From the NCBI RefSeq assembly GCF_003790525.1, contig NZ_CP033635.1: 64,000 bases of DNA; one strand, 5' to 3'. Made by a program: the position numbers. Each line of letters begins with the position of its first letter. The stretch's first letter is position 1. Source of the DNA: Escherichia coli (GTDB lineage Bacteria > Pseudomonadota > Gammaproteobacteria > Enterobacterales > Enterobacteriaceae). Of this stretch, positions 27,001 to 30,000 are shown piece by piece.

Positions 27001-30000
27001 GGTGAATGCCCCCGCGGTTCTATTCCATTGCAGAGTATTATTGTCGATTCCTGACAGAGCATCACCCACGTTATTATAGGTGCCGCTTTTCAACGCGTAG
27101 CTTAGTGCGGTTACGGTGCCGTCGCTGCCTACAGTAGCGCCTCCCCCGAGCCGTTTGGCGACTGAATCACTGATCGTATAAAGCTGTGAGCCGTTGATGG
27201 CATCGGTACTGGTGTTGCTTATGGCACCGGCAGCCATATTAACAATTTTGCGTTTTGTTGTGCTGTTGCCAACTGAAACTGTATTGCTTGCATCAGTGGT
27301 CGATCCTGCGCCGATAGCGACAGAATTGTCGGTCGCTGCTGTAGCCCCTACACCGAGGGCGACAGAATCATTGCCGCTTGCCCTGGATTGACTACCGAAA
27401 GCTAGACTGTTGCTGCCTCCCGCGGCACTGCCCTCTCCTAGCGCGATGGCATTCTCTCCTGCAGACGAACTGTTACTGCCCAACGCGATTGAGTTCACTT
27501 TGCTCGCAATGCTGCCTTGCCCCAGCGCAATCGCGTTTTGTTCGCTGGCTTCACTTGTGTTACCTAATGCAATACTGGATTCGCCAGATGCCTGACTTGC
27601 GTTTCCTAATGCAAGGCTGTATTTACCAAGTGCCTTGCTCTCATTGCCAAGGGCTACCGCGTACTCTGCATCGGTGAAAGCAAATACCCCCATCGCGATG
27701 GAGTAACCCGCATTTATGCTTGCACTCGACGAAGCGCCCATCGAAATAGAGCGGTCACCGTTAGATTGTGCTTTAACCCCAAGAGCCAGTGAAGCATTGC
27801 CATTCGATTCGCTATATGCACCTAACGCAGTACTCCACATACCTAACGCTTTGGAGTAGTAGCCCACGGCAGTTGCTGCGCCATTCGTTGTGGTATGAGT
27901 GCTTGCTTCAGCATCGGTACCAATAGCTATCCAACCTGTTCCATTATTATGACCAGCAGGGGTAACACCAGTACCTGTATCTAACCCTGCCTGAGCTAAT
28001 GCCCCAGACGACGACAATAATCCACCCGCAACCAGTGCAGAAATTAACAGCTTACTGCGCCCGCTCTTCTTCCCACGACTTTTCGCCGTTTCGCTGGCAA
28101 CGCTGTAACTGCCCGTCGCTGGATTCCAGATAACTTTAAAAATTTTGTTCATTATTGATGCTCTCTATTCCTTGATATAAGCGCAGAAGCTGCATTTATT
28201 TTTTGTTTTTTCGCTGCCGAGTTTCAGCAGATTGAACAGTGTCGAACTGGAGATTGGCCATATTGATGGACAACTTCAGATACTTCAGGTTATTAGGCGA
28301 AACGCCTTTTAATGTCAGATTAATGTCTTGCCATTGACCAGGCATTAATTGCAGAGTGGAATTCAGTGTGGTGTTGAAAAGTAATTGTTGCCACTTTGCC
28401 AGAGCTTTGGCATCGGTGGGTCTTTCATTGCCCCATGTCGCATGAAAGCCAATATTTGATACGGGAACGCTTAATAAATTAACCAGCGAAATACGAATAA
28501 TGCTGCCATTTTCAACTGCATCAATAGCCAGCACCCGGCCTGCCAAACCAACAGAGCCGTTATTTAAAATGAAGTATTGGGTTTGTGCCGGGTTAAATTC
28601 TGTAAAGACAAATTCGTCCTGCTTGTCTTTAACTGCCTTCACCACACCAGCGAGCGTTTTGGTACTGTTTATGATAGTAGTTTGTTGTTTTTCAAAGTAT
28701 TCTATCTTGCGCTTATCGAGTTCCTGTTGTTTCTCAAGCGCCTCAATTTTGCTTTTTTGTAACTCTTGCTGTGTAACGAGGTCGTCGACCTTAGTCGCTT
28801 TTTCAATATAGTCACACCCTGCCAATAAGCAAAGTGGCAATATCATTAACACGCTTAACAATGTTTTATTTAGGTTCATAGGATGAATTCCTTTTCATAA
28901 TCCCGATACAGTTGATAATTACGGCACAATCATTTTTTTTATGAATGATTGGAGTGGGGCATATTCGCAAAATAAATTTGTTAGAGAATTTTATATTAAT
29001 TGGTTGTGCGAATGTGTTATTAAATGTCAAACGATTTCAGTTTGTAGCCAATAATATTAATCGCGCGGATTTTAATGATCGGTGTCAATCAATGTCAAAT
29101 GTTTCACCGGATAAAGGCCCGGGGCAGGGAAAGATAAATATTCAGTTGAGTGATGTTTTATTGCGAAGTTTGCGATGCTGATAGAAAAATTTAAATAATT
29201 AATTATGTTTCAAGCATTGATATGCGGTAATTCATTGTTGATATTGATACATCATTATTTAATTTGTACCTGCTTTTCAGAATTTAGCCTGGCATGTGCG
29301 CTAAAAAGAATAGAGGAGATTGAATATATAATGTTAAGAACGTTATAAATATTCGATCTCTGAAACAGGCTCCTGCATGTGCCAGCAGGAGCGAGTAAAT
29401 CGTGAGTGGCTGTAATTACAGCGACGAGAAAGGAACTTAAAACGCGGTCTTAGAGAACCCTGTCATCTCTTGCAGGCCCATTTCGCGGCCCAGCGCGGTC
29501 ATTGGGTGCACAACGACCAGTCCGCGAACGCTCTTCTTCAGTTTGCCCATATCAGCTTGCTCTTTTTTAGTAATCGCGCGCTGGAACGGCATCTTCATCA
29601 GCTTCTGTGCTTCCTTACTGAGTTTCTGGCTGTGAACTTCGCGCAGGCGAGCAATTTCTGCTTCCAGAGTGGCTTTCTCTTTTTCCAGCTCGGCGTATTT
29701 GTCTGCGGCTTCAACCAGCGACAGATCGGCCTGCTGGTGGCGGATGGCGTCCAGACGATCGCTGAGACGTTTGATTTCGTTTTTTTCGACTTCTTTCATG
29801 TGATGGCTTCTGATAAAGATAAATTTATAGCCCCTAGTATGCGCGACCAGGTGCTTTGTTCACAACTGATGACATTGCAATAGTTCTATAACGTAAACAT
29901 TAACATGCTTAAAAACTACGCAATTTATTGATTAATTAAGAAATTTAAAGAAAAAAGATAGTTAATAGAAACGGATGATTATTGAGGATTGAGCACGTTT

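What the first reader, a model, noticed from the sequence alone, without database searches (positions are those of the whole stretch)
28880..29436. 557-bp AT-rich non-coding region upstream of the lipoprotein-adhesin operon
This unusually long, AT-rich spacer with A/T tracts precedes the lipoprotein gene. That is typical of H-NS-silenced adhesin promoters, and it may also host a small RNA or additional regulatory sites. A GC-rich hairpin (gctcctgc...gcaggagc, about 29367-29394) sits just after the yibL stop.
Basis: inference. Interest (0 to 1): 0.3.

Follow-up and report, generated by a model that had tools for sequence, protein, structure and literature searches.

The report
Promoter region of sadBA/upaG adhesin operon
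This AT-rich 557-bp gap is the control region of a known E. coli adhesin operon (SadB lipoprotein plus UpaG/EhaG-type trimeric adhesin) that the literature already reports as H-NS-repressed, so it is largely ordinary; comparison across genera pins down its likely core promoter and one unexplained conserved upstream element.

Summary
Window 28880-29436 is a 557-bp non-coding spacer (GC 0.345) between yibL and a sadB-like lipoprotein gene, which is followed by a YadA-like trimeric autotransporter adhesin. This is the sadBA / upaG / ehaG locus that K-12 lacks.

No ORF in the spacer is conserved, Rfam gives no credible match, and no small RNA is supported.

Thirteen versions of the spacer (E. coli allele classes, other Escherichia, Salmonella, Pseudocitrobacter) are 489-558 bp long and otherwise diverged to 34-41% identity. 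They share only three conserved islands:
- TTTGACA at 29099..29093, the -35 element.
- TA[A/G][A/C]AT at 29074..29069, the -10 element, 17-18 bp downstream of the -35.
- ATTCTGAAAA at 29283..29274, always 171-182 bp upstream of the -35.

I read this as a sigma-70 promoter with a start near 29062 on the minus strand and a leader of about 183 nt. An AT-rich upstream region is the likely H-NS target (repression of UpaG is cited from Totsika 2012). The distal element is probably a site for an unidentified regulator.

The GC hairpin (29369-29392) is real. It is a yibL 3' stem-loop with a poor U-tract.

Verdict: a known kind of region, of low interest.

The parts
28880..29436 (.). yibL-sadB intergenic spacer (557 bp, GC 0.345). 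It is non-coding and belongs to the sadBA island that K-12 lacks.
29093..29099 (-). -35 element TTTGACA (hexamer TTGACA at 29098..29093) of the predicted sadBA promoter P1
   Evidence: The promoter scan scores 11/12. It is the only 7-mer shared by all 13 spacers, against 0 in shuffles. It is a conservation peak.
29069..29074 (-). -10 element TAAAAT (TAGAAT, TAGCAT or TAACAT in other lineages), 18 bp from the -35 here and 17 bp in Salmonella
29060..29068 (-). GC-rich discriminator CCGCGCGAT and predicted transcription start (about 29062). It is conserved in most E. coli alleles and in P. vendiensis but not in the EhaG-type, Salmonella or E. fergusonii alleles.
   Evidence: the start position is inferred from the -10, not measured
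29274..29283 (-). Distal conserved element ATTCTGAAAA (A[AT]TC[CT]GAAA), 171-182 bp upstream of the -35 in the 12 of 13 sequences that carry the full 8-mer. It is a candidate regulator-binding site.
   Evidence: Highest conservation peak, 0.89. The 8-mer occurs in the window only at chance frequency, 6 observed against 5.15 expected.
29100..29366 (.). AT-rich, fast-evolving upstream region. It has the highest polymorphism density (0.41 of columns vary over 29107-29270) and is the presumed H-NS binding platform.
   Evidence: the H-NS role is inferred from the literature
28880..29062 (-). Predicted sadB 5' leader of about 183 nt, with no unusual fold stability
   Evidence: z = -0.50
28927..28951 (-). 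Inverted repeat CAATCATT-N9-AATGATTG in the leader. It is kept in most alleles, with one compensatory C:G to T:A change in E. marmotae. It is either an operator or a weak RNA hairpin.
28880..28892 (-). Shine-Dalgarno AGGA (28892..28889) able to pair with UCCU (28883..28880) directly before the ATG. The 4-bp mini-hairpin is present only in the UpaG-type alleles.
29369..29392 (-). GC-rich stem-loop GCUCCUGC-N8-GCAGGAGC in the yibL 3' UTR, followed by CUGUUUCAG (weak U-tract)
   Evidence: Other lineages carry different stem-loops at the same place. The terminator scan did not report it.
29409..29422 (-). Small upstream stem-loop GCUGU-AAUU-ACAGC in the yibL 3' UTR, with compensatory changes in some alleles
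28196..28879 (-). sadB homologue (inner-membrane lipoprotein, DUF3251), first gene of the operon
   Evidence: PDB 4C47, E = 7e-69; RefSeq names
23503..28152 (-). YadA-like trimeric autotransporter adhesin (UpaG/EhaG/SadA positional orthologue), 43 bp after sadB
29437..29799 (-). yibL (ribosome-associated protein), the upstream neighbour on the same strand

Best explanation
The spacer is the cis-regulatory region of the sadBA-type operon, which encodes a SadB lipoprotein and a UpaG/EhaG/SadA-type trimeric autotransporter adhesin.

Transcription of yibL ends at or near a GC-rich stem-loop (29392..29369).

The operon is then transcribed on the minus strand from a single sigma-70 promoter, P1. Its -35 is TTGACA at 29098..29093 and its -10 is TAAAAT at 29074..29069, with a predicted start near 29062. 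This gives a leader of about 183 nt that ends in the sadB Shine-Dalgarno sequence.

The roughly 270 bp of AT-rich, rapidly evolving DNA upstream of P1, and the AT-rich leader, provide the substrate on which H-NS polymerises to keep a near-consensus promoter silent under laboratory conditions.

A short invariant element (ATTCTGAAAA, 29283..29274), held about 180 bp upstream of the -35, is most likely the site of a conserved but unidentified DNA-binding protein that modulates or relieves silencing.

Shown here: the anatomy, the conservation pattern and the absence of coding or known-RNA content. Inferred: the start site, H-NS occupancy on this allele and the role of the distal element.
For: Locus identity:
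- The downstream gene matches the SadB structure 4C47 at E = 7e-69.
- The next gene is a YadA-like adhesin, named EhaG in O104:H4.
- The locus lies between the mtl and lld genes and is absent from K-12, as described for sadBA in PMC3953254.

Promoter P1:
- It is the only minus-strand promoter-like site in 28700-29600, scoring 11 of 12.
- In 13 spacers that are otherwise 34-41% identical between deep lineages, TTTGACA is the only 7-mer shared by all, against 0.0 expected from shuffles.
- The -35, the -10 and the distal element are the only three conservation peaks at or above mean + 2 sd.
- Among close alleles, P1 has the lowest polymorphism: 0.089 of columns vary, against 0.286 for the spacer and 0.41 upstream.
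- In ST131 alleles the promoter block is 90% identical while the spacer as a whole is 74% identical.

Distal element: its distance to the -35 is 171-182 bp in every sequence that carries the full 8-mer, while its distance to the yibL stop varies more. The 8-mer is not otherwise enriched.

Spacer length is kept at 489-558 bp across genera.

H-NS:
- GC is 0.32-0.35.
- PMC5012682 lists UpaG among H-NS-repressed autotransporters, citing Totsika 2012.
- SadA is not detectably expressed in culture, and the native inducing conditions are unknown (PMC3953254).
- Salmonella STM3690 falls 4.2x while hns rises 3.1x in a fur mutant (PMC3212961).
Against: - No transcription start, H-NS ChIP or reporter data for this allele were available, so P1 and its start are predictions.
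- The H-NS high-affinity 10-mer is not enriched: one 2-mismatch hit in the spacer and chance level across the window.
- AA/TT 10.5-bp phasing is only marginal.
- The primary paper on H-NS and upaG/ehaG (PMC3302597) could not be read, so that link is second-hand.
- The 18-bp spacer is slightly longer than optimal.
- The distal element matched no regulator consensus that I tried (FNR, CRP and Fur by scan; others by eye).
- The 13 sequences are related, so conservation statistics against shuffles overstate independence. The near-random identity of the surrounding sequence mitigates this.
Confidence: 0.7

Rival explanations
1. A second, distal promoter. The conserved element is the -10 and start region (TAAATT|CTGAAAA) of an upstream promoter P2. 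P2 would produce either a roughly 400-nt leader for sadBA or a separate short transcript.
For: The hexamer just upstream of CTGAAAA resembles a -10 in most lineages (TAAATT, TAAAAT, GATATT, CATAAT, CAAATT), with A at position 2 and T at position 6.
Against: No -35-like hexamer lies at 16-18 bp in any lineage (by eye, on the alignment), and the scan did not report it. The invariant part is TC[CT]GAAA, not the hexamer. P. corydidari has ACTATT. No terminator or conserved sequence follows.
Confidence: 0.1
2. The spacer hosts an independent small RNA or a small protein gene.
For: The spacer is long, and its length is conserved at 489-558 bp. Several promoter-like hexamer pairs lie on the + strand, and mechanical ORFs of 37-78 aa exist.
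Against: Rfam gives only sub-threshold chance hits: U4 at 21 bits against a gathering score of 46, and a miRNA. No terminator-like site lies inside the spacer. ORFs are broken even in a 93%-identical allele and are not shared between classes. No conserved block exists other than the promoter and the distal 10-mer. The + strand sites score 9/12, as expected in AT-rich DNA.
Confidence: 0.05
3. Apart from the core promoter, the spacer is functionally neutral filler inherited with the island. AT-richness would reflect mutational bias or foreign origin, and the distal 10-mer would be an incidental relic.
For: Sequence outside the three islands has diverged to near-random identity. There is no H-NS motif enrichment and only weak curvature signal.
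Against: Length is retained within about 70 bp across four genera. The distal 10-mer keeps both its sequence and its 171-182 bp spacing while its flanks randomise. A chance 8-mer occurs only about once per 21 kb of double-stranded sequence.
Confidence: 0.15

Closest known systems
sadBA operon of Salmonella enterica and its E. coli positional orthologues upaG (UPEC) and ehaG (EHEC)
   Same: Same chromosomal position between yibL/mtl and lldP. A SadB-type lipoprotein gene is followed, after a gap of 43-44 bp, by a trimeric autotransporter adhesin gene. The locus is absent from K-12. The spacer length is similar (526 bp in Salmonella, 543 bp in O104:H4/BL21).
   Different: The window carries a distinct allele (SMS-3-5 / AR_0013 type). 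Its spacer is only about 40% identical to the EhaG-type and Salmonella spacers outside the promoter hexamers and the distal 10-mer. The GC-rich discriminator and the leader palindrome are allele-specific.
H-NS-silenced autotransporter and fimbrial promoters of E. coli (upaC, upaH, F9 fimbriae, sslE)
   Same: A long AT-rich upstream region, a variable or accessory locus, a gene product not expressed in standard culture, and a strong core promoter that needs silencing.
   Different: H-NS binding was not tested for this allele. The published high-affinity H-NS motif is not enriched here, and curvature signals are weak.
Intrinsic (Rho-independent) terminators
   Same: An 8-bp GC-rich stem with an 8-nt loop, 45 nt after the yibL stop codon. 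A stem-loop is present at the same place in every lineage.
   Different: The tail is CUGUUUCAG rather than a U-run and fails the scan's T-tract rule. K-12 instead uses a canonical terminator about 100 nt downstream of the yibL stop. In this window that same terminator sits after the adhesin gene (23452-23477).

Membership tests
Sigma-70 promoter | -35 hexamer close to TTGACA | tested here: met
   TTGACA 6/6 at 29098..29093; invariant in all 13 sequences
Sigma-70 promoter | -10 hexamer close to TATAAT, with A at position 2 and T at position 6, 17 +/- 1 bp from the -35 | tested here: met
   TAAAAT 5/6 with an 18-bp spacer. Other lineages have TAGAAT, TAGCAT or TAACAT with 17-18 bp spacers.
Sigma-70 promoter | Transcripts start 6-8 nt downstream of the -10 | not testable with these tools
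   No start-site data were available; the start near 29062 is inferred.
H-NS-silenced regulatory region | AT content well above the genome average | tested here: met
   GC 0.345 (0.317 in the core) against 0.48 for the window; lowest 8.6% of 557-bp windows
H-NS-silenced regulatory region | High-affinity nucleation motif (TCGATAAATT-like; consensus recalled from Lang et al. 2007) | tested here: not met
   One 2-mismatch hit at 29182; the window total is 79 against 78.4 expected
H-NS-silenced regulatory region | Intrinsic curvature or phased A-tracts | tested here: inconclusive
   The AA/TT 10.5-bp power exceeds 98.8% of shuffles for the full region, but 9 periods were tested and the sub-regions are not significant. 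No wedge-model curvature was computed.
H-NS-silenced regulatory region | H-NS binds the DNA, and the gene is derepressed in an hns mutant | not testable with these tools
   Literature only: UpaG is listed as H-NS-repressed in PMC5012682, citing Totsika 2012. The primary paper is not held.
sadBA / upaG / ehaG locus | [quoted passage not shown] | tested here: met
   PDB 4C47, E = 7e-69 over residues 23-227. The lipobox LLAGC is visible in the translation. RefSeq names it 'SadB/YajI family lipoprotein'.
sadBA / upaG / ehaG locus | Trimeric autotransporter adhesin with YadA-type head, stalk and anchor | tested here: met
   RefSeq names it 'YadA-like family protein'. It matches NCBIfam TAA models. 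Homologues carry the Pfam YadA_head, YadA_stalk and YadA_anchor domains.
sadBA / upaG / ehaG locus | Position between the mtl operon/yibL and lldP | tested here: met
   described in PMC3953254
Intrinsic terminator (the hairpin) | GC-rich stem-loop shortly after a stop codon | tested here: met
   8 bp including 6 G:C pairs. The 101-nt fold containing it gives -28 kcal/mol, z = -2.96. The stem is invariant in 8 alleles.
Intrinsic terminator (the hairpin) | U-rich tract immediately 3' of the stem | tested here: not met
   The tail is CUGUUUCAG. The scan's rule (at least 5 T in 8) did not report it.
Small regulatory RNA gene | Match to a described RNA family, or own promoter plus terminator with conserved structure | tested here: not met
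   Rfam gives no hit near its gathering score. No terminator lies in the spacer. There is no conserved block or structure beyond the promoter.

The most novel reading that the evidence does not exclude
The invariant element ATTCTGAAAA (29283..29274) keeps both its sequence and its spacing of about 180 bp (or one helical turn less) from the -35 across Escherichia, Salmonella and Pseudocitrobacter, while everything around it randomises. It could be the docking site of a conserved, so far unidentified regulator (an anti-silencer or a looping partner). That regulator would define the still-unknown natural signal that switches on SadA/UpaG/EhaG adhesins.
Probability: 0.3. Interest if true: 0.45.

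Novelty: already known. Interest (0 to 1): 0.2.

Why it matters
UpaG, EhaG and SadA are adhesins and vaccine candidates, and their natural inducing conditions are unknown (PMC3953254). Knowing the operon's control region is useful but not new in kind: H-NS repression of upaG/ehaG is already published.

This analysis adds a precise, testable map:
- one deeply conserved core promoter;
- a predicted start and leader;
- a single invariant distal element that could be used as bait to find the missing regulator.

It also shows that the spacer hides no gene or known RNA.

Tried and rejected
1. Protein-coding content. All ORFs of at least 25 codons in 13 spacers were compared by blastp. Only trivially close alleles share them, and the window's 78-aa ORF is broken in a 93%-identical allele. 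Rejected.
2. Known RNA families. cmscan with E up to 10 over 28000-30400 gave only U4 (21 bits against a gathering score of 46) and a miRNA. These are chance hits.
3. Structured leader or thermometer. The 198-nt leader fold has z = -0.5. Alifold finds only a 7-bp AU-rich palindrome and a 4-bp SD hairpin, with one compensatory change. This is too weak to claim.
4. H-NS 10-mer motif. Not enriched.
5. A-tract phasing. Marginal.
6. FNR, CRP and Fur sites. These were prompted by Salmonella array data. No site is positionally conserved across lineages. The TTGAC-N4-ATCAT in the P1 spacer is E. coli-only and overlaps the promoter.
7. Other regulator matches for the distal element. By eye I compared it with RcsAB, IHF, Cra, ArgR, CpxR, OmpR, marbox, sigma-32 and sigma-54 consensus sequences recalled from memory. 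None fitted. This is not a formal test.
8. Phase variation. The A8/T8 tract at 28933-28940 has identical length in the 9 close alleles examined.
9. Primary papers. Totsika 2012 and Valle 2008 are not held.

Full report
**Observation**

The window is E. coli. The spacer is 100% identical to strain AR_0013, and the adjacent lipoprotein gene is 100% identical to SMS-3-5.

Window 28880-29436 lies exactly between two minus-strand features. One is the ATG of a 227-aa lipoprotein ORF (28196..28879). The other is the stop codon of yibL (29437..29799).

GC is 0.345 over the spacer and 0.317 for 28880-29365, against 0.48 for the whole window. This puts it in the lowest 8.6% of 557-bp windows. The hairpin GCTCCTGC-N8-GCAGGAGC is at 29369-29392.

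**What the neighbours are**

- The lipoprotein matches the crystal structure of Salmonella SadB (4C47) at E = 7e-69. RefSeq names it a DUF3251 or 'SadB/YajI family' lipoprotein.
- Forty-three bp downstream is a 1549-aa YadA-like trimeric autotransporter adhesin. The positional orthologue in O104:H4 is annotated EhaG.
- The locus sits between mtlADR-yibT-yibL and lldPRD.
- K-12 lacks both genes and the whole spacer. Its sequence diverges from the window immediately after the yibL stop. About 95 bp of unrelated sequence follow, containing what looks by eye like a REP-type element. Homology then resumes at a strong terminator that, in the window, sits just after the adhesin gene (23452-23477).
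- This is the sadBA locus and the K-12 deletion described by Grin et al. (PMC3953254).
- About 4149 of 5426 complete E. coli genomes carry a sadB homologue, in several very divergent allele classes. A spacer recognisably similar to this one is found in 1880 genomes.

**Is anything encoded in the spacer?**

- Mechanical ORFs exist (78, 54, 47 and 37 aa). None survives comparison: the 78-aa ORF is split across frames in an allele that is 93% identical, and no ORF is shared among allele classes.
- Rfam at permissive thresholds gives only chance hits.
- No terminator-like site lies inside the spacer.
- The predicted leader is no more stable than shuffled sequence, z = -0.5.
- I found no support for a small RNA or a small protein.

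**Phylogenetic footprint**

I collected 13 versions of the yibL-sadB spacer:
- eight E. coli or Escherichia sp. alleles, including the ST131, O104:H4 and BL21 types;
- E. marmotae, E. fergusonii and Salmonella enterica;
- two Pseudocitrobacter species.

All are 489-558 bp long. Identity to the window falls to 0.34-0.41 for the deep lineages, which is close to random for AT-rich DNA.

Against that background, exactly three 10-column peaks exceed mean + 2 sd:
1. 29106-29088, containing TTTGACA.
2. 29079-29066, containing TAAAAT.
3. 29286-29271, containing ATTCTGAAAA.

TTTGACA is the only 7-mer present in all 13 spacers, and dinucleotide-preserving shuffles give none.

The first two peaks coincide with the only minus-strand promoter-like site found by the scan: TTGACA, 18 bp, TAAAAT, scoring 11 of 12. 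The -10 varies only within TA[A/G][A/C]AT, and the spacer is 17-18 bp.

Among nine close alleles the promoter block is the least polymorphic segment. There, 0.089 of columns vary, against 0.286 overall and 0.41 in the region upstream.

I therefore place the operon promoter P1 here, with a start near 29062 and a leader of about 183 nt. The hexamers and their conservation are shown. The start site is inferred.

**The distal element**

A[AT]TC[CT]GAAA lies 171-182 bp upstream of the -35. This holds for the 12 of 13 sequences that carry the full 8-mer; SCPM8794 has CTGAAAT and aligns at the same position. Its distance to the yibL stop varies more, from about 117 to 155 nt, so it is tied to the sadB promoter and not to yibL.

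The two alleles with 171 bp differ from the rest by about one helical turn. The 8-mer occurs at only chance frequency elsewhere in the window, 6 observed against 5.15 expected. Its retention at a fixed place in lineages whose flanks have randomised therefore argues for selection.

It could be read as a -10 plus start region, but no -35 accompanies it, and the invariant bases are downstream of the putative hexamer. I favour a protein-binding site. Scans for FNR, CRP and Fur sites found nothing positionally conserved. Comparison by eye with other consensus sequences identified no regulator.

**H-NS**

For:
- AT-richness and an accessory, highly variable locus.
- A near-consensus promoter whose product is nevertheless not detected in culture (PMC3953254).
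- The statement that UpaG is among the H-NS-repressed autotransporters of UPEC (PMC5012682 citing Totsika et al. 2012).
- In Salmonella, sadB (STM3690) drops 4.2-fold in an anaerobic fur mutant in which hns rises 3.1-fold. This is compatible with indirect control through H-NS. The same table also lists regulation by Fnr for STM3690, with no direct Fur binding shown (PMC3212961).

Against, or missing:
- The published H-NS 10-mer, recalled from memory, is not enriched.
- AA/TT phasing at 10.5 bp is marginal once the nine periods tested are considered.
- I could not read the primary paper.
- No binding data exist for this allele.

**The hairpin**

The 8-bp GC-rich stem is invariant in the eight alleles that have it. 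A smaller stem upstream (29409-29422) shows compensatory changes.

Lineages with unrelated sequence after the yibL stop (O104:H4, Salmonella, E. fergusonii, P. corydidari) each have a different stem-loop at the same place. A 3' stem-loop is therefore a conserved feature of the yibL transcript.

None is followed by a good U-tract, and the terminator scan does not report the window's hairpin. It may be a weak intrinsic terminator or a 3'-end stabiliser. This matters for the operon because read-through from yibL would run into P1.

**Minor leader features**

- An inverted repeat, CAATCATT-N9-AATGATTG (28927-28951), is retained in most alleles. It has one compensatory C:G to T:A change in E. marmotae and a register-shifted version in ST131.
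- The Shine-Dalgarno AGGA can pair with UCCU directly before the ATG in UpaG-type alleles.
- Both are too weak to interpret.
- The A8 tract in the palindrome loop shows no length variation.

**Verdict**

The finding is real and its interpretation is broadly right. However, it describes the regulatory region of a known operon whose H-NS repression is already in the literature. The small-RNA idea is not supported.

This analysis adds a precise promoter assignment and one unexplained, deeply conserved distal element. Interest is low (0.2). The most novel reading still open is that the distal element is the handle for the unknown regulator of these adhesins.

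Noticed in passing
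window 29800-30082 (yibL-yibT divergent spacer): This 283-bp spacer is as AT-rich as the finding (GC about 0.32-0.36). It holds five of the window's 79 matches to the H-NS 10-mer (TCGATAAATT with up to 2 mismatches), clustered at 29816-29951. The finding's own spacer has one.
   Followed up: partly
window 23404-23477: Directly after the adhesin stop codon lie a canonical terminator (GGGCAATCCTCATCAGAGAATTGCCC, 23452-23477) and a palindrome (AATTGGTAGGGCCAATT, 23404-23420) in the lldP upstream region. In K-12 the same terminator follows yibL. The sadBA island therefore lies between yibL and what is yibL's terminator in K-12.
   Followed up: partly
L003 5029-5125 (K-12, between yibL and the shared terminator): Where other strains have about 5.9 kb of sadBA island, K-12 has about 95 bp of unrelated sequence. 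By eye it contains a REP-like GC-rich palindrome (GCCGCATCCGGCA).
   Followed up: no
window 23503-28152 versus L001 2336-7273: The adhesin is 1549 aa in the window but 1645 aa in AR_0013, although the upstream spacer is 100% identical. The gene contains long near-identical internal repeats visible in the translation, which suggests that repeat copy number varies between otherwise identical loci.
   Followed up: no
spacer alleles: window 29287-29340 versus L012, L018-L023: The spacer shows a mosaic pattern. The window and UM146 share one version of about 40 bp (TCAATCTCCTCTATTCTTTTTAGCGCACATGCC), while other close alleles share a different version. The point where homology to yibL-proximal sequence ends also differs between allele classes. 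Both observations indicate recombination within the spacer.
   Followed up: partly
L019 1-60 (E. coli UM146): In UM146 the sadB homologue is annotated as a pseudogene (internal stop), although its promoter region is intact.
   Followed up: no
window 29025-29031: A second TTTGACA lies about 35 nt downstream of the predicted start. It is present only in window-type, SCPM8794 and E. marmotae alleles and has no -10 partner at 16-18 bp. It is probably not a promoter.
   Followed up: partly
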